A stretch of 64,000 nt of DNA, from the NCBI RefSeq assembly GCF_009914755.1, contig NC_060947.1; one strand, written 5' to 3'. Position 1 is the first letter of the stretch. Each line of letters opens with the position of its first letter. Position numbers and translations under genes: made by a program. The notes below the pieces were generated by a model. The model saw nothing but the letters and a program-made list of their open reading frames with translations. It was not told the origin of the DNA and did no database searches. This document shows, one piece after another, positions 19,990-29,892 of this stretch. The stretch comes from the human T2T-CHM13v2.0 reference genome, Homo sapiens.

Positions 19990-22074
19990 TATACCTCTTT
20001 TTTTGGTGGCTTCTTTAATCACTCAGGTGCAAAATCTGCGGCTCCAGTTCTCTAGCATTTAATTCTCTGCTATATAAGAACAAACAAAATGAGATAAACT
20101 TATTTTACAGTTTTACCTTAATCTCTTTGTTATCATCCTTAGTGGCAGTTAGTTCATTTGTTCATCTATAATACATTTGTCAAGTTTATGTAATGAAATT
20201 TATACTTTTTAAAAAGATTTATATATTGCTTCATTAGATTTCTCACATTAACTGGTTATGAAATCTTAGATGAGTAACTCAACCTTTGTGAGCTTTTTCT
20301 TCTTGTGTAAAGTGGAAGTGTTAATCCTACCTGACAACCTAGTGAAGAACAAATGATAATGAGATAATATATGTGAACATGTTTTGAAATTCAATGTAAT
20401 GCTTGATAATGAAAGATGTTAATATTACTAAACAGAACACCTTTTTATCATAACTTGGGCACCCTATTTAACAGTGTTCACTTTTTGTATTAAATAGCTT
20501 GAACTGACATTTTAAAAATCAGTGATAGTTAACTTTTCTTTTGCCTCAATGCTCCTGTATTCTTGTCTATATAAATGTCTTTATAGTACCATTTCACATG
20601 AAATGATCAATAATTTTTATGAGAATTTTACAACTAAGTCTAAGCTGCTGTATTTGAATACATCTCACAAAGTAAAAAATGATAATTACCTTTTACAAGC
20701 ATATGAAGACCAAATACTTAACCTGTGTATTCTTTACTGTTTATACTATTATTTGCAAATTTTTAAATTCTAGGTTAGATTTCTGGATCTCTAATTCACC
20801 TATGACATACAATGAGTTTCCTTGGGGTGTATTAATGGATATATTCATATATCAATCTGAAAATATAATCTTATAAATTAAATTACCACATTGCATAGTG
20901 ATTCCAATACCCACATATGCTCATCTTGACAGATTACTTAAAGTGTTTTCTAAGAATATGGCAAATTCCTAATTAAGTACACAACTTTCTTTACAGAGCA
21001 AAACTGATAACTTGATGAAGCAAAAAGGAAGACTATGACAATTATAAGTGTGACCAAATTATATTATGTGCTGATTGTGCCATACATAACAAGCATTCAT
21101 AAAAATATCAGCTTAAACCAAAATAAAAATTCAAGGCTGGCTCTCTTCATTGTGTTTCTGCTCTCAAAATATTGTACCCACAAGATGATTTATCATTTCA
21201 AATAACTCTACTTCTGACCCTAAGTATTTGAAAAGGTAAATGCAATTATGAAGTCTACAAGTACAATTCTGAAGTCTACTAATACTAGAAAATTATCAGA
21301 TATCTAATGAATCAAATATATCTTTTAGAAGTGACAATATATCAATATTTACCATGATTCTTTACTGAGCTCAAATCATACATGTTAAGAAAAGCAGAAA
21401 CACAGTTGATTTATCTACATCATAGTAGTTAAACACATCAAATGAATGTTATAAATCTTTAAAAAGTAAGCATAGCTTCAAGATATAAGGTTAAAGAAAA
21501 TAAAAATGAAGAGAATTTCGTTGCATTTGAACATGATTTGAAAGGTGAGCACTTTTACTCAATCCTGTTTTTGATGATGGTTTGATCAATAAGGTCCTTA
21601 ATGCAGGTAAAAAAAAAGAGCTCCTGTTTTTAAAAATGTATGGCCTCAATTAATACAGTTTGATTCAATTTATTTCAATACATTTATTGAGACTTTACTA
21701 GGTCTAGTGGACCATTGTAGGAGTTAAGAGTTCTCCAAAGATGAACAAGAGGCAATTCTTATCCTCCAAGGGTTCTAAACTAGTATAGGAGTCAGACATG
21801 TATACACATAAATCTAATGAACATAATAGAGGAATAATATGCCATAGGAATACAGTAGAAGGATAAATTAGTTTTGATTGAAGTTGTCAGTTTTCATCTT
21901 GAAATCAGCAGTGACTAATATAACCTTATCTCTATGTGGTATAAAAGCAGTCAAGGCCAAATATTTTAAACTGGAAACACAACATTCCTGCAAAGTATTT
22001 TCTCATTTATAGTTATTGTGTATGTGTCATAAAGCATTATCTAAGATACCCTGCAATCTTTATACATCCCAGTA

Positions 22075-22355
22075 GGTAAAAAAATTATAGAATAAAGCTA
22101 GATGGAATAAGATCTAGTGTTGAGTAGCACAAATAGGACAACTATAATAAAGAAAAATTTATTTTGTATTTCAAAATAACCAGGAGAATGGAATTGAAAT
22201 GTTTCTAACACAAATAAATGGTAAATGCTTGAAGTGATGAATACCCCAATTACCCTGATTTGATCATTACACAATGTTTGCTTGTATCAAAATATCACAT
22301 GTACCTGACAAATATGTAAAACTATTGTATATCCATAATATTTTTTAAAAGAATA
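22075..22355 (+). mobile_element. L1MA 3' end fragment
   Basis: AATAAGATCTAGTGTT...TACCCTGATTTGATCATTACAC...ATCAAAATATCACATGTACC. Confidence 0.85.
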
Positions 22356-22464
22356 AAATATGAAAGAAAAGCACTAGTTCCCAGTTGTGGAATGCCAGAT
22401 GAGAGAGACGAATATCTTCATTATAGAAATTCAAGCATGTTGTCATTTAATTTGTATTTCTAGA

Positions 22465-22625
22465 AATTTAGACATAGAAGGAAACTTAAAGGTCCTGTAG
22501 TCAATCTCCTCATTCTATGAATGAGGAACTGAGACCCAGAGAGGTGAACTGGTTTGGTGAAAGTCAAACAGTGGGTTAGTGGAAGAGCTGGGTTGAGTAT
22601 TCTAAGTTTAGTGCTGCCCACCAAG
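22465..22625. mobile_element. MIR fragment (donor of the copy inside Tigger3b)
   Basis: ATGAGGAACTGAGACCCAGAGAGGTGAA core. Confidence 0.8.
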
Positions 22626-23305
22626 CTGTTTCAGAAGAGTAGGGTAAGTGTGTTAATGAAATAATTTAATAGATTTCACAATTAATTTTAAAGAAAAAAA
22701 TGACATACTGTTTAACATAAATGAATTATCAACATTTAACCCATATGTTAGAGTTTATGGAGCTGAAAAGTAAAATTCTGAGACAGTGTCAAAATATTAT
22801 CTGGGGGTTGTCATGGCAACTTTTTAGGAAGTGTTTTTGAAAAATCACTGTAGAGTTTTGTAATATGTACTGGCAAGTGCCTGATTAAACTGTCAGAATA
22901 AATTTAGTTGAAGAAAATCTATAGAACTTGAGTTTCTGAAAAACCTGTAAAGGAATCCACATTTTTAAATTTTGTTATCTTCATCTAACCCTACAATTAA
23001 ATAATATATATTTATTTAAATATTTAGACATTTATAGTTTCTGAATTAGAATGGCAAACACCTTGTAAAGCACAAGAAAATTATATGTTTAAATGTTAAA
23101 TTTGCAAAACAAGATGATTTTATGTCTAGATTACTCAGAAGCAGTTATCAAGGCAGACAAGAGGTCATCTCTCACGAAACTTACATCATAATGAAGAGAA
23201 ATAGGCAATAAGCAAACAAGCAAAAATATATAAGATAGTGATAAATTACTCAAAGAATTAAAATATGTTGCTAAAGATTGTGGATATTTTGCTTTGGAGG
23301 GATGG

Positions 23306-24394
23306 TCAGAAATAAGTTTCTTTAAGAAAAGTAGTATTTCCATTGAGATCTGAATGACAAAAAGAATGCAAATCTACAAAGATCAGAAGAAAGCAGCAAA
23401 GACAGAAGTGATTTTGCTGGGAACGCTATCATCTTGAAAGTGCTTCAGATAAATTAAAATGAGAAGGAAATAGTGTCACGTGCTTCATACCTGATGGTAT
23501 TTCTTTCTCATTTTAATTGATGATTTAGTCAATGACAGACCACACATAAGATGGTAGCCCTGTAAGATTATAATGGAGCTGAAAAATTCCTATTCCCTAG
23601 TGATCTAAAGAGGTCAATTGGCTTAGTGAAAGTCACACAGAGTGGCAGAGCTGGGTTTAGTATTCTGTTTGGTGATGGTGTAACTTTGTAGCACAATGCA
23701 TTGCTCACATGGTCGTGGTGATGCTAGTGTAAAAAAATCCATTGTGCTGTCACATAAAAGGATAGCATATACAATTATATCATATTACAATTATATGATA
23801 ATACAATTATATTATGATCAAGTATTATGTATTACATATATATTACAATTATCATTATATATTACAATTATATATTATATTATATATTACAATTATCATA
23901 TAATTGTAATATGATATAATTGTATATGCTATCCTTTTATGTGACAGCACAATGGATTTTTTTACACTAGCATCACCACGACCATGTGAGTAATGCATTG
24001 TGCTACAAAGTTACACCACCACCAAACAGAATACTAAACCCACCTCTGCCATTAATCCACTGTGTGACTTTCACTAAGCCAATTGACCTCTTTAGATCAC
24101 TAAGGAATAGGAATTTTTCAGCTCCATTATAATCTTACGGGGCTACCATCTCATGTGTGGTCTGTCATTGACTAAATCATCAATCAAAATGAGAAAGAAA
24201 TACAGTCAGGTATGAAGCATGTGACAGTATTTCTTTCTCATTTTAATTTATCTGAAGCACTTTCAAGATGATAGCGTTCCCAGCAAAATCACTTCTGTCT
24301 TTGCTGCTTTCTTCTAATCTTTGTAGAACTGCATTCTTCTTGTCATTCAGATCTCAACGGAAATACTACTTTTCTTAAAGAAACTTATTTCTGA
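23306..24394. repeat. Long inverted repeat: arms 23306-23802 and 23892-24394, 89-bp AT-rich spacer
   Basis: Hand alignment of left arm to reverse complement of right arm: about 18 substitutions and one 6-bp indel. Confidence 0.98.
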
Positions 24395-25499
24395 TCAAGT
24401 ACGTAATACTTGATCATAATAATAAATGACTATGTTAGTGGTTTATGTATTTACTATACTATACATTTTATTGTTATTTTAGAGTGTATTCCTTCTACTT
24501 ATAAAGAATAAAAGTTAACTGTAAAATGGCCTCAGGCATGTCCTTCAGGAGGTATTCCAGAAGAAGGCACTGTTATCATAGGAGATGACAGTTCTATGTG
24601 TGTTATTATTCCTGAAGACCTTCCAGTGGGACAAGGCATGACAGTGGAAGACAGTGAAACTGGTGATCATCACTCTGTAGGCCTAGGCTAATGTGTGTGT
24701 TGGTGTCTCAGTTTCTAAAACAAAAGTTTGAAAAATATTAATAGTAATATTTTTTAAATGGAAGAAAGCATATAGGATAAGGAAATAATAAAGAAATTAT
24801 TTGTGTACCGTTGTATAATGTGTGTGTTGACCCATTTTTGCCTGGTGTTCCATTATTGGAACGCTAAGCATGTAAAAGTTATTTATATCTTACTGCTCAA
24901 GGTCATTGCCAAGGTCTGATTGCAAAAATTCAAAAAATTGCAACCTCAGGCGTCAATGAGTTTTAAGCTATGTGTTATTATAAAAGAGTCAAAAATTTTT
25001 TTAAAAAAACTGTGTAAAGTAAAAGAGTTATAGTAAACTAAGGCTAATTTATTTTTTCAGAAAATTTAAAAAAATAAATTTAGTGTAGCCAAAGTGTATG
25101 GTATTTATAAAGTCTACAGTAGTATACTGTAATATCGTAGGCCTTGGCATTCACTCACCACTCACTCATTGGTTCACCTGGAGCAATTTCTTGCTAACTC
25201 TTTTCAGTGTAAGTGCCCTATAAAGGCATACCCCATTTATATCATATTCTTACTGTACCTTTTCTAGGTTTAGATATGTTTAGCTACACAAATACTTGCC
25301 ATTGTGTTATGGTTACCTACAGGATTCAGTACAGTAACATGCTGTATAGGTTTGTAACCTAAGAACAACAGGCTACACCATATGGCCTAATTATGTAGTA
25401 GGCTATACCATCTAGGTTTGTACCTTCTATGATGTTAGACAATGATGAAACCGCCTAAGGATTTATTTCTCAGAATGTATTGTCATCTTTATGTGACTG
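23473..25499 (+). mobile_element. Tigger3b (Golem/MER7) DNA transposon, rearranged
   Basis: AAGATTATAATGGAGCTGAAAAATTCCTA; resumes at ~24398 AGTACGTAATACTTGAT; GTCCTTCAGGAGGTATTCCAGAAGAAGGCA; ends ATGTGACTG. Confidence 0.9.
24831..24960 (+). mobile_element. MER85 piggyBac MITE (PGBD3-derived) nested in Tigger3b
   Basis: TIRs CCCATTTTTGCCT / AGGCGTCAATGAG, internal palindrome GTTCCATTATTGGAAC (24847-24862), degenerate TTAA sites. Confidence 0.93.
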
Positions 25500-26114
25500 C
25501 ATAAGCAGTGCAATATGGTTACAAATGTGCATATTTGAATACACACCATCTAAGAAAAAGCTCTCTTTCGTCAGAGTGTGTTAGAATTAGTTAGCTGTTG
25601 AATATCCACAAAGTGTCATCATTGGTCAATATGCCTTTAGAACTAAAAATTATAATATATAAACTAACATTTGATGACAAGAAGCCAGACTATTTTAAAC
25701 TGAGGCTTAATTTTCTCAGAAAACCAAAAGATATGGTTACTATATACATATTCCTATGAAGTACTTATTTTATTAATGAGCTGTAAGAAGTAGTTTTAGA
25801 AAGAAAATAAAATGTTCTAGTTGAGAATTTCTCAATATTGAATACATAGGATTTATATGCATACTAAAGATATTGAAACACTTATAGTTTAAAATAGTTT
25901 TTTTAATTTAAATGCAGGAATACTCAGTCTTTGTTAAATATAGTTGACCTTTTGAAACCTACAAATTTTCAGGTCTGACCCATCAAATTAACATCCTCCA
26001 AAACAGTGTTATATGGAATCTCAGATTAGCTGATACTCATATAGTCCAGCTATTTCACTTAGCAGAATGGTAAAGAAGATGCACAGAACTTAGCTCACTT
26101 CACCTCTTAGCAGC

Positions 26115-26708
26115 TGTATTAGTTTCCTATTGCTGCTTTAACAAATTAGAAACTTAAAGCAGTACCTATTCCTATTTATTTTCTCACCGTCTCTATAGGT
26201 CAGAAGCCCAGGTGGGATCAACGGAGTTATCTTGTTAGTGTCAAGACTGAAATATATATGTCAACAGTCTGGGCTCTTCTCTAAAGCCTAAGGAGAAAAA
26301 AATAAATATTTTCAAGTCCATTCAGTTTGTTGGCAGAATTCATTTCCTTTGTCTGTAGAATTGAGGTACTTGTGGCTACCAGCTGGGGTTGGCCATCTGC
26401 TCTTAGAAGCTGCACACATTCCTTCTAATGCGGTCTCCATCTTCAAGCAGCAGAGGCACATCAAGTTCTTTAATGCTTTGAGTCTTCCTAACCTCCTCTT
26501 CTGCCAGAGAAAGCTACCTGTGCTTAAGGGTTTGTGTCCACCATTTCATTGGACCATCTGGATAATCATGGATACTCTCCCTATCTCAAGGTCAGCTGTG
26601 CCATATAACATACATAATTACAGGAGTGATGTCTCATCATATCCAGATGTTTTAGAGATTAGAGTAAAACATCTTTAGGAGGACATTTTAGAAATCCTGC
26701 CTATCACA
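26115..26708 (-). mobile_element. MLT1D/E-type solo LTR
   Basis: TGTATTAGTTTCCTATTGCTGC...CTGCCTATCACA; TSD GCAGC/GAAGC. Confidence 0.8.
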
Positions 26709-27604
26709 GAAGCAGATCTGAAACAAGAATCAAAATCTTTTTACTGTAGATTCAGTATTTTCTCCTATCCTGTTTAAAATCAGTAACTGGGTTTCCATAA
26801 ATATTTAAGTCATTGAATTGATGTGGAAAACATAATTTATGTTATATTTAGTGTATTCTTAATATTTGTATATTTAATGTGAAGAAGAGTTATGATTGAC
26901 ATGTTTTCTCTCAAAGATCCTTGTTCTTTTATTATAAAGAGATTTCTAAACAGATTATCCATTTGTCATTTTCAATAATCACATTTCATTTTCCTTTTTT
27001 AATTAAAAGAAAATTAGATGGCATATTACTTGTATTACTGTAACAAAAGGCAAATCCAATAATAACAGCAATGCATTTTATTCCTTTGTAGGCATGAAAA
27101 TTTAAAGTAATTAGTTTCTTTATTTGAACCAATAGAATTGCTAATGGATTAATTATCATGGAATAAAAAGTAACACACTATAAGTGTTAATTAAACACCC
27201 AGATGATGTTCAGTGATTATTTTCCAGACCACATTAACTGTTATAATTCTCTTAATTAACAGTATTATTTTTGCATATAGTCTTGCAGTCATTGTGAATT
27301 ATTTCTTTGATTAAAAATAATAACAAAGTTTTTATTAGAGGTATGACAATTTTCTAAAGTGAAAAACATCTTCTACCAAGGAAGCTGAAGGATAATTTTA
27401 CTAATATACAAACATAATTCTCAGTCTCAAAGTAAAGTGTAGTGAACATCTCATCGTTTTTTTGGTCTAGAATTACTTTCACTTTTTTCTGATAAATTCA
27501 ACCTCATTCTTTTGAGGAGCTACCTCTTTTCCACTCTGTGGTTCTAATGGTGTTTACAAAATATAACCCAATCCCCTGGTCATAAGCATGACTACCTGTA
27601 CCAC

Positions 27605-29892
27605 TGATAGGGTTTGGCTCTGTGTCCCCACCCAAATCTCATCTTGAGTTTTACTCCTGTAATTCCCATGTGTTGCAGGAGGGACTTCGTGGGAGATAAT
27701 TTGAACCATGGTGGTGGTTTTCCCCATACTGTTCTCGTGGTATGGAATAAGTCTCACAAGATCTGATGGTTTTATCAGGGATCTCTGCTTTTGTATCTTC
27801 CACATTTTCTCTTGCTGCCACCATGTAGGAAGTGCCTTTCACCTCCCGCCATGATTCTGAGGCCTCTCTAGCCATTTGGAACTGTAGGTCCAATTAAACT
27901 GCTTTTTCTTCCCAATCTCAGGTATGTCTTTATCAGCAGCATGAAAACAAACTAATACAGTAAATTCATACCAGTAGAGTGGGGTGTTGCTAAAAAGATA
28001 CCCGAAAATGGAGAAGTGCCTTTGGAACTGGGTAACAGGCAGATATTGGAACAGTTTGAAGGGCTCAGAAGAAGACAGCAAAATGTGAAAAAGTTTGGAA
28101 CTTCCTAGAAACTTGATGAAGGGCTTTGCCTAAAATGCTGATAGCAATATGGACAATAAAATTCAGGTTGAGATGGTCTCAGATGGAGACGAGGAACCTG
28201 TTGGGAACTGGAGCAAAGGTGACTCTTGTTATGTTTAAACAAAGAGACTGGCAGCATTTAGCCCCTGCCCTAGAGGCTTGTGAAACTTTGAACTTGAAAA
28301 AGATGATTTAGGCTATCTGTTGGAAGAAATTTCTAGGGAGCAAAACATTCAAGAGGTGATTGGGTGTTGCTAAATGCATTAAGTTTTATACGGGAAGCAG
28401 AGCATAAAAGTTTGAAAATTTGCAGCTTGACTATGCTATAGAAAAAACAAACAAACATTTTTTGGGGAGTAATTCAAGCCAGCTGCAGAAGTTTGTATAA
28501 GTAGCAAGAAGCCTAATGTTAATCCCCAAGACCATGTGGAAAATGTCTCCAGTCCACATCAGAGAACTTCGTGGCAGCTACTCCCTTCACAGGCCTGGAG
28601 GCCCAGGAGGAAAAAGTGGTTTCCTGGGTCGGGCCCATGATTCCTGTGCTGTGTGCAACCTAAGGACTTGATGCCCTGTGTCCCAGCCCCTCCAGCCATG
28701 GCTTAAAGGGGCCAACATACAGCTGGGGCTGTGACTTCAGAGGGTGAAAGCCCCAAGCCCTGGCAGCTTCCATGTGGTGTTGAGCTTGTGCCTGCACAGA
28801 AGTCAAGAATTGAGGTTTGGGAACCTCTGCCTAGATTTCAGAAGATGTATGGAAATGCCAGGAAACGCCAGGGAAAAGTTTATTTCAGGGGTGGGGCCCT
28901 CATGGAGAACCTCTGCTAGGGCAATGTGGAAGGGAAATGTGGGGTCAGAGCCCCCACACAGAGTCCCTACTGGGGCACCACCTAGTGGAACTGTGCAAAG
29001 AGGGCCACTGTCCTCCAGACCCCAGAAAGGTAGATCCACCAACAGCTTTCACCGTGCACCTGGAAAAGCCACAGACACTCAACACCAGCCCATGAAAGCA
29101 GCCAGGAGGGAGCACCCCTGCAAAGCCACAGGGGTGGAGCTGCCCAAGATCATGGGAACCCACTTTTTGCATCAGCGTGGCCTGTATATGAGACCCGGAG
29201 TCAAAGGATATCATTTTGGAGCTTTGAAATTTGACTTCCCCGCTGGATTTCAGACTTGCCTGGGCCCTGTAACCCCTTTGTTTTGGCCAATTTCTCCCAT
29301 TTGGAATGGCTGTATTTACCTGATACCTGTACCCCCATTGTATTTAGGAAGTAACTAGCTTGCTTTTGATTTTACAGGCTCACAGGTGGAAGAGACTTGC
29401 CTTGTTTCAGATAAGACTTTGGACTGTGGACTTTTGGGTTAATGCTGAAATGAGTTAATACTTTGGGGGAATGTTGGGAAGGCATGATTGGTTTTGAAAT
29501 GTGAGGATATAAGATTTGGTGGGGTCAGGGACAGAATGATATGGTTTGACTCTGTTTCCTCACCCAAATCTCATCTTGAATTTTACTCCCATAACTCCCA
29601 CATGTTGTGGGAGGGACGCAGTGAGACATAATTTGAATCATGGGGGCAGTTTCCCTCATACTGTTCTTGTGGTAGTGAATAAGTTCTCATGAGATCTAAC
29701 GGTTTTATCAGGGGTTTCTGCTTTTGCATCTTCCTTATTTTCTCTTGCCGCCACCATTTAAGAAGTGCCTTTCACTTCCCGTCATGATTCTGAGGTCTCC
29801 CCAGCCATGTGGAAGTGTAAGTCCAACTAAATCTCTTTTTCTTCCCAGTCTTGGGTATGTCTTTATCAGCAGTGTGAAAACAAACTAATACA
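27605..29892 (+). mobile_element. Full-length THE1A-type MaLR provirus: LTRs 27605-27959 and 29538-29892
   Basis: TGATA.GGTTTG.CTCTGT...ACTAATACA twice around a THE1 internal region; TSD ACCAC/CCCAC; ORFs 28126-29358 are THE1-internal frames. Confidence 0.95.

What the first reader, a model, noticed from the sequence alone, without database searches (positions are those of the whole stretch)
23306..24394. 1.09-kb near-perfect palindrome made by de novo inverted duplication
Seen: ~500-bp arms at ~96% identity with an 89-bp spacer. The duplicated unit crosses an element boundary (flanking DNA plus the Tigger3b left end), and Tigger sequence resumes at ~24398. It is therefore neither a TIR pair nor two independent insertions. 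Established: long, closely spaced inverted repeats can form hairpins or cruciforms and are rare and unstable. Inference: a replication template switch made it. If transcribed it would give ~500 bp of non-Alu dsRNA (ADAR/Dicer/MDA5 substrate), and the spacer could invert recurrently.
Basis: partly seen in the sequence, partly recalled or inferred. Interest (0 to 1): 0.8.

Follow-up and report, generated by a model that had tools for sequence, protein, structure and literature searches.

The report
Old 1.1-kb inverted duplication, human X
A 1.1-kb DNA palindrome in a gene-poor part of the human X chromosome is real and arose when about 500 bases of unique DNA plus the start of an old transposon were copied backwards next to themselves, probably tens of millions of years ago, with no sign so far that it does anything.

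Summary
The arms are 23303-23802 (+) and 24397-23892 (-). They differ by 19 substitutions and one 6-bp indel in 500 aligned bases (96.2%), and the spacer is 89 bp and AT-rich. Each arm has about 175-215 bp of DNA found nowhere else in the genome, followed by the first ~300 bp of a multi-copy Tigger3-like element. The element continues on the + strand from 24398-24404. The structure is therefore a local inverted duplication of about 595 bp inserted inside the element. It is not a terminal-repeat pair and not two separate insertions. None of 29 other copies of the element is palindromic. The spacer holds a 21-nt inverted copy (20/21) of the element sequence that lies just beyond the insertion point. 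That favours a replication template switch between strands over a simple fold-back. The breakpoints sit on a small quasi-palindrome seen in varying degree in other copies of the family. Arm divergence (K2P 0.039) is about 4 times the human-chimpanzee X divergence, so the event is old and the structure has persisted. Transcription, dsRNA, cruciform formation and spacer inversion were not testable. This is a known kind of event of modest interest.

The parts
23303..23802 (+). Left arm, taken as the original copy: unique flank plus the 5' part of the Tigger3-like element
   Evidence: It is contiguous with the upstream unique DNA, which matches only itself in the genome.
23303..23517 (+). Single-copy part of the arm. 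The exact element boundary lies somewhere in 23475-23517 and is not resolved.
   Evidence: query 23050-23480 has only 2 places in the genome, itself and the right arm (query 254-430). In one search, no other genomic hit covers query positions 1-210.
23449..23521 (+). Nested small hairpin (33-nt arms, 7-nt loop, 82% complementary) at the flank/element boundary. Its mirror copy is at 24179-24251.
   Evidence: I3, I4. One search shows that it occupies the place where other copies carry their first ~20 nt.
23518..23802 (+). 5' part of a multi-copy Tigger3-like DNA-transposon fossil (the name is recalled, not tested)
   Evidence: 38 other genomic matches at 83-91% among 40 scored of 1105 candidates; collinear with 8 other copies.
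23608..23686 (+). About 60-80 bp extra inside the element relative to other copies, present in both arms and so older than the duplication
   Evidence: Searches show a gap in homology to other copies; only 2 genomic places, the two arms.
23762..23812 (+). 16-nt tandem array (3.3 copies) at the inner end of the left arm. 2.5 copies are mirrored at 23894-23932.
   Evidence: TRF
23803..23891 (.). 89-bp asymmetric AT-rich spacer (11% G+C)
23811..23831 (-). Inverted copy (20/21 identical) of the element segment that on the + strand lies just after the insertion (24400-24420). A weaker extension reaches 23804.
   Evidence: alignment
23839..23891 (+). Three AT-rich units of 19-25 nt in + orientation between the inverted segment and the right arm. 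They are either extra switches or later remodelling.
   Evidence: (D2)
23892..24397 (-). Right arm, taken as the inserted inverted copy; includes a 6-bp indel at 24054-24059
   Evidence: Its outer end abuts element-internal sequence, a junction seen in none of 8 other copies.
24398..25487 (+). Continuation of the same Tigger3-like element in the original orientation
   Evidence: Example L004: subject 1372 aligns at 23789 and subject 1368 at 24404. Homology to other copies runs to about 25480-25487.

Best explanation
A single old mutational event, or a tight series of events, at this locus copied about 530 bp in reverse-complement orientation and inserted the copy next to its source. The source was ~175-215 bp of unique flank, the first ~300 bp of a resident Tigger3-like element, and ~25 bp of the element beyond the switch point. 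The result is a 1,095-bp quasi-palindrome. The most likely mechanism is a replication-based template switch between strands, of the FoSTeS/MMBIR or 'four-point' kind. Synthesis of the + strand stopped at a small quasi-palindrome carried by this element family. The 3' end re-annealed by a few bases of microhomology on the opposite template about 25-30 nt ahead and copied backwards for about 0.5 kb. It then returned to the original template at almost the point it had left. The AT-rich centre shows extra short switches or later remodelling. Since then the two arms have diverged by about 3.9%. The structure is probably an inert, tolerated by-product in a gene desert, stabilised by its 89-bp asymmetric spacer and by mismatches. 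Shown: the structure, the unique flank, the collinearity, the inverted segment in the spacer, and the divergence. Inferred: the mechanism, the age in years, and the inertness.
For: The flank is single-copy: one search found 2 places, both of the 2 candidates scored. The inner arm is a multi-copy element. The element is collinear across the insertion: 7 of 8 comparison copies continue on the same strand after the right arm, 5 of them restarting at 24399-24404. In L004 only 3 subject bases lie between window 23789 and 24404. The palindromic arrangement is not a family trait: 0 of 29 other loci have an inverted repeat over the element's 5' part, and the positive control was recovered. Segment 23811-23831 (-) equals 24400-24420 (+) at 20/21, so the copied tract began beyond the point where forward synthesis stopped. 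Walker et al. (PMC7954356, passages) state that when point 2 lies ahead of point 1 the nascent strand cannot have served as the template, which implies an inter-strand switch. The junctions show short microhomology, though the context is AT-rich: the left arm's inner end and the reverse complement of 24422-24428 match 6/7, and there are 0-3 nt at 24396-24398. Other copies carry a 9+9 quasi-palindrome exactly at the breakpoint, with 9/9 pairs in L009, 8/9 in L007, 7/9 in L005 and 6/9 in L003 (my reading of the output; L004 and L008 were not scored). The differences are 15 transitions to 4 transversions and are spread over both arms. At the two sites I polarised by eye, each arm carries one derived change.
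Against: No outgroup genome was available, so the pre-insertion allele, the order of events at the centre and the age are not observed directly. The centre needs at least 3-4 switches or later remodelling to explain the + oriented units at 23839-23891, so the simple two-switch model is incomplete. Microhomology in sequence that is about 89% A+T is expected by chance. Capture of a copied fragment at a double-strand break would give the same product. The innermost 99 bp of the arms are identical. The chance of this is P = 0.015 if that position is specified in advance and 0.27 for any position. This may mean gene conversion or re-symmetrisation, and either would make the divergence-based age a minimum.
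Confidence: 0.7

Rival explanations
1. Double-strand-break repair rather than a fork-level switch. A break inside the element was repaired by fold-back priming of a resected end, or by end-joining capture of a newly copied neighbouring fragment in inverted orientation.
For: The product (inverted copy next to its source, 0-7 nt microhomology) is the same as reported for break-associated palindromes. GAP-Seq junctions had 0-7 bp microhomology and were ascribed to NHEJ (PMC4057610 passages). Short templated inverted duplications at breaks arise by fold-back (PMC11724301, abstract start only).
Against: Simple fold-back of the left end cannot copy sequence lying to the right of the break, yet 23811-23831 is such a copy. 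Capture of a free fragment requires an extra copy of exactly the adjacent 0.5 kb. Neither point is decisive.
Confidence: 0.2
2. The palindrome is transposon-made: the two long terminal repeats of a MITE-like deletion derivative, or two independent head-to-head insertions of the same element.
For: About 285 bp of each arm is Tigger3-like.
Against: The outer ~175-215 bp of each arm is single-copy DNA duplicated only here. The element continues after the right arm in the orientation of the left arm. None of the breakpoints (23303, ~23803-23811, 24398) coincides with an element terminus. 0 of 29 other copies are palindromic. Both arms share copy-specific features: the extra 23608-23686 segment and the nested hairpin.
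Confidence: 0.01
3. Assembly or sequencing artefact, such as a fold-back chimeric read.
For: Palindromes are known to be hard to clone and sequence (PMC4057610 background passage).
Against: The arms differ at 19 sites and by a 6-bp indel, with a 15:4 transition bias, and the spacer is asymmetric. Chimeric fold-backs would give identical arms.
Confidence: 0.01
4. The structure is maintained because it is functional, for example as a hairpin-RNA or small-RNA source or as a structural element. This concerns its present role and is compatible with either origin above.
For: It meets the structural criteria used for long inverted repeats that can yield hairpin RNAs: arms >400 nt and >=80% matches (LIRBase, PMC8728187 passages). 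It has persisted for a long time. The innermost 99 bp are identical.
Against: The hub table gives no annotated gene or functional element within 100 kb. Rfam gives no match reaching a gathering score: 8 sub-threshold hits, the best 53.7 bits against a cut-off of 144, to a plant miRNA family. The arms accumulate ordinary transition-biased substitutions at roughly neutral level. No expression data were available here.
Confidence: 0.05

Closest known systems
Short-range template-switch mutations (four-point model; Walker et al. 2021, PMC7954356, passages read)
   Same: A reverse-complement copy of adjacent sequence is inserted in place and creates an inverted repeat. The event can be described by points 1-4. 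The context is AT-rich and secondary structure exists at point 1 beforehand. Point 2 lies ahead of point 1, which implies an inter-strand switch.
   Different: Those events are searched for within tens to hundreds of nucleotides. Here the reverse-copied tract is about 530-595 nt and the centre needs more than two switches.
FoSTeS/MMBIR complex rearrangements and DUP-TRP/INV-DUP (PMC2621351, PMC11293582; search listing and abstract starts only)
   Same: Replicative switches with microhomology, inverted segments and complex junctions with short templated pieces.
   Different: Those are kb-to-Mb events, usually with a triplicated segment and often pathogenic. Here about 0.6 kb is duplicated once, with no triplication apart from the ~21-nt segment being present twice, and the event is fixed and old.
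Fold-back inverted duplications (PMC3907307, PMC7467729; abstract starts only)
   Same: Head-to-head inverted duplication with a short spacer, seeded by a short inverted repeat.
   Different: Fold-back products are typically terminal, with adjacent deletion or dicentric intermediates. This one is interstitial, has no detectable loss beyond a few bases, and includes sequence from beyond the turn-around.
PATRRs, palindromic AT-rich repeats (review PMC7999016, passages)
   Same: A palindrome of several hundred bp with a very AT-rich centre, in non-coding DNA.
   Different: PATRRs are described as near-perfect, with more than 90% A+T. Here the arms are 65% A+T (35% G+C), 3.8% diverged and separated by an 89-bp asymmetric spacer. 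No translocation is known to me at this site (recall only).
Large primate X-chromosome palindromes P1-P26 (PMC8327919, passages)
   Same: An inverted repeat on the human X with a short spacer (their range starts at 77 bp) and a structurally variable centre.
   Different: Their criteria are arms >=8 kb and >=99% identity, maintained by gene conversion and carrying genes. Here the arms are 0.5 kb, 96% identical and gene-free.
Long inverted repeats / inverted duplicates catalogued genome-wide (LIRBase PMC8728187; Chen et al. 2017 PMC5398296)
   Same: It meets the IRF-type criteria: arms >400 nt, >=80% matches, spacer <=1 kb.
   Different: Those catalogues are structural only. Whether this locus is listed, or expressed, was not checked because no database access was available.

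Membership tests
Local inverted duplication by template switching (four-point model) | The inserted tract is the reverse complement of sequence within a few hundred bases on the same chromosome | tested here: met
   23892-24397 is the reverse complement of 23303-23802 (96.2%); 23811-23831 is the reverse complement of 24400-24420 (20/21).
Local inverted duplication by template switching (four-point model) | The flanking sequence is collinear with the ancestral state once the inserted tract is removed | tested here: met
   Other copies of the element served as proxy for the ancestral state; in L004, subject 1372 aligns at 23789 and subject 1368 at 24404. No orthologous outgroup was available.
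Local inverted duplication by template switching (four-point model) | A pre-event allele is seen in an outgroup species | not testable with these tools
   No primate genomes are held; only the window's own assembly could be searched.
Transposon terminal inverted repeats / MITE | The arms end at element termini and the whole unit recurs elsewhere with target-site duplications | tested here: not met
   the outer part of the arm is single-copy; 0 of 29 other copies are palindromic; no breakpoint lies at a terminus.
PATRR | Near-perfect palindrome without a substantial spacer and with >90% A+T (as described in PMC7999016) | tested here: not met
   arms 35% G+C, 19 substitutions plus an indel, 89-bp spacer.
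Primate X palindromes (Jackson et al. 2021) | Arms >=8 kb and arm-to-arm identity >=99% | tested here: not met
   arms of 500/506 bp at 96.2% identity. Criteria are from the passage.
Long inverted repeat (LIRBase definition) | Both arms >400 nt, >=80% matches, <=10% indels, loop <=100 kb | tested here: met
   Criteria are from the passage.
Hairpin-RNA / endo-siRNA locus | Transcription across both arms and small RNAs or A-to-I editing mapping to them | not testable with these tools
   No expression data are held. The hub table lists no gene within 100 kb. Rfam gave only sub-threshold hits.
Tigger3 (subfamily b) DNA transposon | Match to the curated family consensus | not testable with these tools
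No repeat library is held. What is shown is that 23518-23607 and 23687-23814 plus 24399-25487 match many dispersed genomic copies at 70-91%.

The most novel reading that the evidence does not exclude
The small 9+9 quasi-palindrome carried by this transposon family may be a recurrent seed for strand-switching. In that case this locus would be a fossil of a half-kilobase inter-strand template switch that is still structurally active in people, through centre deletions, spacer inversion or re-symmetrisation (the identical innermost 99 bp), or that yields a long non-Alu hairpin RNA in some tissue.
Probability: 0.07. Interest if true: 0.5.

Novelty: new member of a known kind. Interest (0 to 1): 0.3.

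Why it matters
The locus is a clean natural example of a half-kilobase inverted duplication whose junctions can still be read. The short inverted copy of downstream sequence in the spacer shows that the copy began ahead of the stopping point, which argues for a switch between strands rather than a fold-back. It also shows that a 1.1-kb quasi-palindrome with an 89-bp asymmetric centre can survive in the human germline for a time equal to several human-chimpanzee divergences. That helps calibrate how much asymmetry and mismatch make such structures tolerable. Beyond that it is an ordinary neutral rearrangement in a gene desert. No function is shown.

Tried and rejected
2. Rfam scan of 22000-27000 at E<=1 gave 8 hits, none reaching a gathering score. 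The best was plant MIR2630 at 53.7 vs 144 bits across the AT-rich centre; mir-3660 scored 36.4 vs 70 on the nested hairpin at 24179-24251. I read these as generic hairpin resemblance, not as family membership.
3. I tried to map the exact 5' terminus of the element. One of six other copies (L004) matches 13/15 at 23475-23489. The other five gave short, inconsistent matches. The boundary is therefore given only as 23475-23517.
4. I searched for another genomic source of the extra 23608-23686 segment and found none.
5. Literature searches listed no paper on this locus, and none of the 12 papers listed contains 'Tigger3'. These word searches cannot find a locus by coordinates, so this is weak evidence that it is undescribed.
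6. Warburton et al. 2004 (PMC524409) is not held, so I have no genome-wide count of inverted repeats of this arm and spacer class. The only background I measured is this 64-kb window.
7. The transposon-made, two-insertion and artefact readings were rejected for the reasons given under rival explanations.
8. A simple two-switch model was rejected as complete, because the + oriented units at 23839-23891 lie between two reverse-oriented tracts.

Full report
**Observation.** The inverted repeat is real. The repeat finder gives two blocks: 23303-23640/24060-24397 (338 nt, 96%) and 23643-23815/23879-24051 (173 nt, 95%). A gapped alignment joins them into one pair of arms, 23303-23802 (+) and 24397-23892 (-), with 6 extra bases at 24054-24059 in the right arm. 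Over 500 aligned columns there are 19 substitutions: 15 transitions and 4 transversions, 3 at CpG. This gives p = 0.038 and K2P = 0.039. Identity is 95.1% if the indel columns are counted. The spacer 23803-23891 is 89 bp at 11% G+C, and the arms are 35% G+C. As single-stranded DNA, the 995-nt core folds into one long hairpin of -497.8 kcal/mol. Twenty shuffles gave -92.7 +/- 5.0, so z = -80. In the whole 64-kb window it is the only inverted repeat of >=100 nt with arms within 3 kb.

**What the arms are made of.** The window's own assembly could be searched.
- A 431-nt query covering 23050-23480 has exactly two places in the genome: itself, and with query positions 254-430 the right arm at 95% (2 of 2 candidates scored).
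- The whole left arm as query gave 54 matches (40 of 1264 candidates scored). Apart from the two arms and a weak self-match of the nested hairpin, they cover only query 211-306 and 378-512, that is window 23513-23608 and 23680-23814.
- So the outer ~175-215 bp of each arm is single-copy DNA, and the inner part belongs to a dispersed repeat with hundreds or more copies (1105 first-look candidates).
No repeat library is held here, so the name is untested.

BLAST of 21000-29000 against eight other copies shows that the element does not stop at the palindrome.
- In 7 of 8 copies homology continues on the same strand after the right arm. The eighth, L006, matches only the first 83 nt.
- In 5 of 8 copies (L003, L004, L005, L007, L009) the alignment restarts at 24399-24404. 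It runs on to about 25480-25487 in the two longest (L007, L009).
- In L004 the subject goes from base 1372 (window 23789) to base 1368 (window 24404). About 595 bp of the window (23803-24397) is therefore an insertion relative to the family, and that insertion is the spacer plus the right arm.

**Not a property of the transposon family.** I fetched 3-kb loci around 29 other copies and searched each against its own reverse strand. None has an inverted repeat overlapping the element's 5' part, while the control locus L013 returned the 1,095-bp palindrome. An earlier run had a filter error and is not used. The inverted repeats seen elsewhere in L003, L006, L024, L030 and L031 do not involve the element's 5' part. 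Both arms also share copy-specific features: a 60-80-bp extra segment at 23608-23686 with no other genomic copy, and a nested 33-nt hairpin (I3 and I4). The right arm is therefore a copy of this very locus.

**Junction anatomy.**
- Reading other copies across the breakpoint, the family sequence runs ...ACAATTATGTAC-N-GTACATAATACTTGA... (letters as printed for L009, with the central base written N). This contains a 9+9 quasi-palindrome. By my count it has 9/9 pairs in L009, 8/9 in L007, 7/9 in L005 and 6/9 in L003. L004 and L008 were not scored.
- In the window, the left half of that motif ends the family-like part of the left arm (about 23771-23778). The right half begins right after the right arm (24400 onward).
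- Between the left half and the spacer, both arms carry 24 nt of a 16-nt tandem array (23762-23812, 3.3 copies; mirrored at 23894-23932, 2.5 copies). That array therefore predates the duplication.
- Inside the spacer, 23811-23831 on the minus strand equals 24400-24420 on the plus strand at 20 of 21 positions. A weaker extension (6/7 with one gap) reaches 23804/24428. The reverse-copied tract therefore began about 21-29 nt beyond the place where the forward copy stops.
- Between that segment and the right arm lie three AT-rich units of 19-25 nt in + orientation (23839-23891; D2, 8, 30).
- The outer junction at 24396-24398 allows 0-3 nt of microhomology. The inner junction has a 6/7 match. In DNA this AT-rich, such matches are weak evidence.

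**Mechanism (inference).** In four-point terms:
- Point 1 is at about 23802-23810.
- Point 2 is at the position now numbered about 24420-24428.
- Point 3 is at 23303.
- Point 4 is at about 24398-24400.

Point 2 lies ahead of point 1. [quoted passage not shown] The same holds if the event is read from the other direction. This favours an inter-strand template switch at a fork over a simple fold-back of a nascent or resected end. The same paper reports raised secondary-structure potential around point 1 in ancestral sequences and an AT-rich context, which fits the family quasi-palindrome at the breakpoint. The + oriented units in the spacer require either two further short switches, as in iterative-switch models (MMBIR; PMC2621351, abstract start only), or later slippage and remodelling of the centre. 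I cannot tell these apart. A break-repair route, by fold-back plus a second switch or by end-joining capture of a copied fragment, gives the same product and remains a real rival. I give the fork-level switch about 0.7 and break repair about 0.2.

**Age and stability.** Arm divergence of 0.039 (Poisson 95% range for 19 differences: 0.023-0.059) is 4.0 times (2.4-6.4 times) the human-chimpanzee X-chromosome divergence of 0.97% reported in PMC10705393 (passage; arithmetic). With a human-chimpanzee split of roughly 6-7 million years (recalled) and a steady clock, the event falls at roughly 25 million years, with a range of about 15-45. That is ape-wide and perhaps catarrhine-wide. Any arm-to-arm gene conversion would make this a minimum.

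The innermost 99 bp of the arms carry no difference. The probability is 0.015 if that position is named in advance and 0.27 for a run of that length anywhere. This is a hint of conversion or re-symmetrisation, not a demonstration.

Long persistence argues against marked instability. In yeast Alu inverted-repeat assays, widening the spacer from 12 to 100 bp cut recombination 300-fold, and single mismatches near the centre also reduced it (PMC10164571 passages). The review PMC7999016 states the same principles. An 89-bp asymmetric spacer and 3.8% mismatch would be expected to have similar effects here.

**Function.** Nothing here shows one. The hub's table lists no gene or functional element within 100 kb. 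Rfam gives no hit at a gathering score. The substitutions look neutral. Transcription, editing, small RNAs, cruciform extrusion and spacer inversion need data that these tools do not hold.

**Comparison with known kinds.**
- The locus works like a template-switch inverted duplication, at a size between the 'short-range' events (tens to hundreds of nt) and kb-Mb FoSTeS/MMBIR rearrangements (listings).
- It meets the structural definition of a long inverted repeat (arms >400 nt, >=80% matches; LIRBase).
- It fails the criteria for the primate X palindromes (>=8-kb arms, >=99% identity).
- It fails the description of PATRRs (>90% A+T, near-perfect).
- It fails the test for transposon terminal repeats.

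I found no paper on this locus. Word searches cannot query coordinates, and catalogues such as LIRBase may list it.

**Verdict.** The functional and instability claims are untested and, on the divergence evidence, unlikely to be strong. This is a new member of a known kind, with interest 0.3.

Noticed in passing
window 23449-23521 (mirror copy 24179-24251): A nested hairpin with 33-nt arms, a 7-nt loop and 82-90% complementarity sits exactly where other copies of the element carry their first ~20 nt. One arm lies in the unique flank, so it looks like an older, short inverted copy at the transposon's 5' end. It is present in both large arms and therefore predates the big duplication. There is a sub-threshold Rfam hit to mir-3660 (36.4 vs 70 bits).
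   Followed up: partly
window 23608-23686 (mirror ~24002-24100): About 60-80 bp inside the Tigger3-like element is absent from other copies, and no other genomic match was found in a whole-genome search. Its origin is unknown.
   Followed up: partly
window 23704-23802 / 23892-23990: The innermost 99 bp of the two arms are identical, while the outer 401 bp carry all 19 substitutions. The probability is 0.015 if the position is specified in advance and 0.27 otherwise. Possible causes are arm-to-arm conversion or re-symmetrisation near the centre.
   Followed up: partly
window 23719-23976: The AT-rich centre gives sub-threshold Rfam matches to plant miRNA precursor families (MIR2630 53.7 vs 144 bits; MIR4371). 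This is almost certainly generic long-hairpin resemblance.
   Followed up: no
window 24828-24956: About 130 bp inside the downstream part of the element has no match in the eight comparison copies. Alignments stop near 24827 and resume at 24957. This may be an insertion or a subfamily difference.
   Followed up: no
loci L003, L006, L030, L031 (other chromosomes): Flanks of some other copies of the element hold 110-315-nt inverted repeats at 75-89% identity, hundreds to thousands of bases apart and unrelated to the element's 5' part. They are probably pairs of common interspersed repeats.
   Followed up: no
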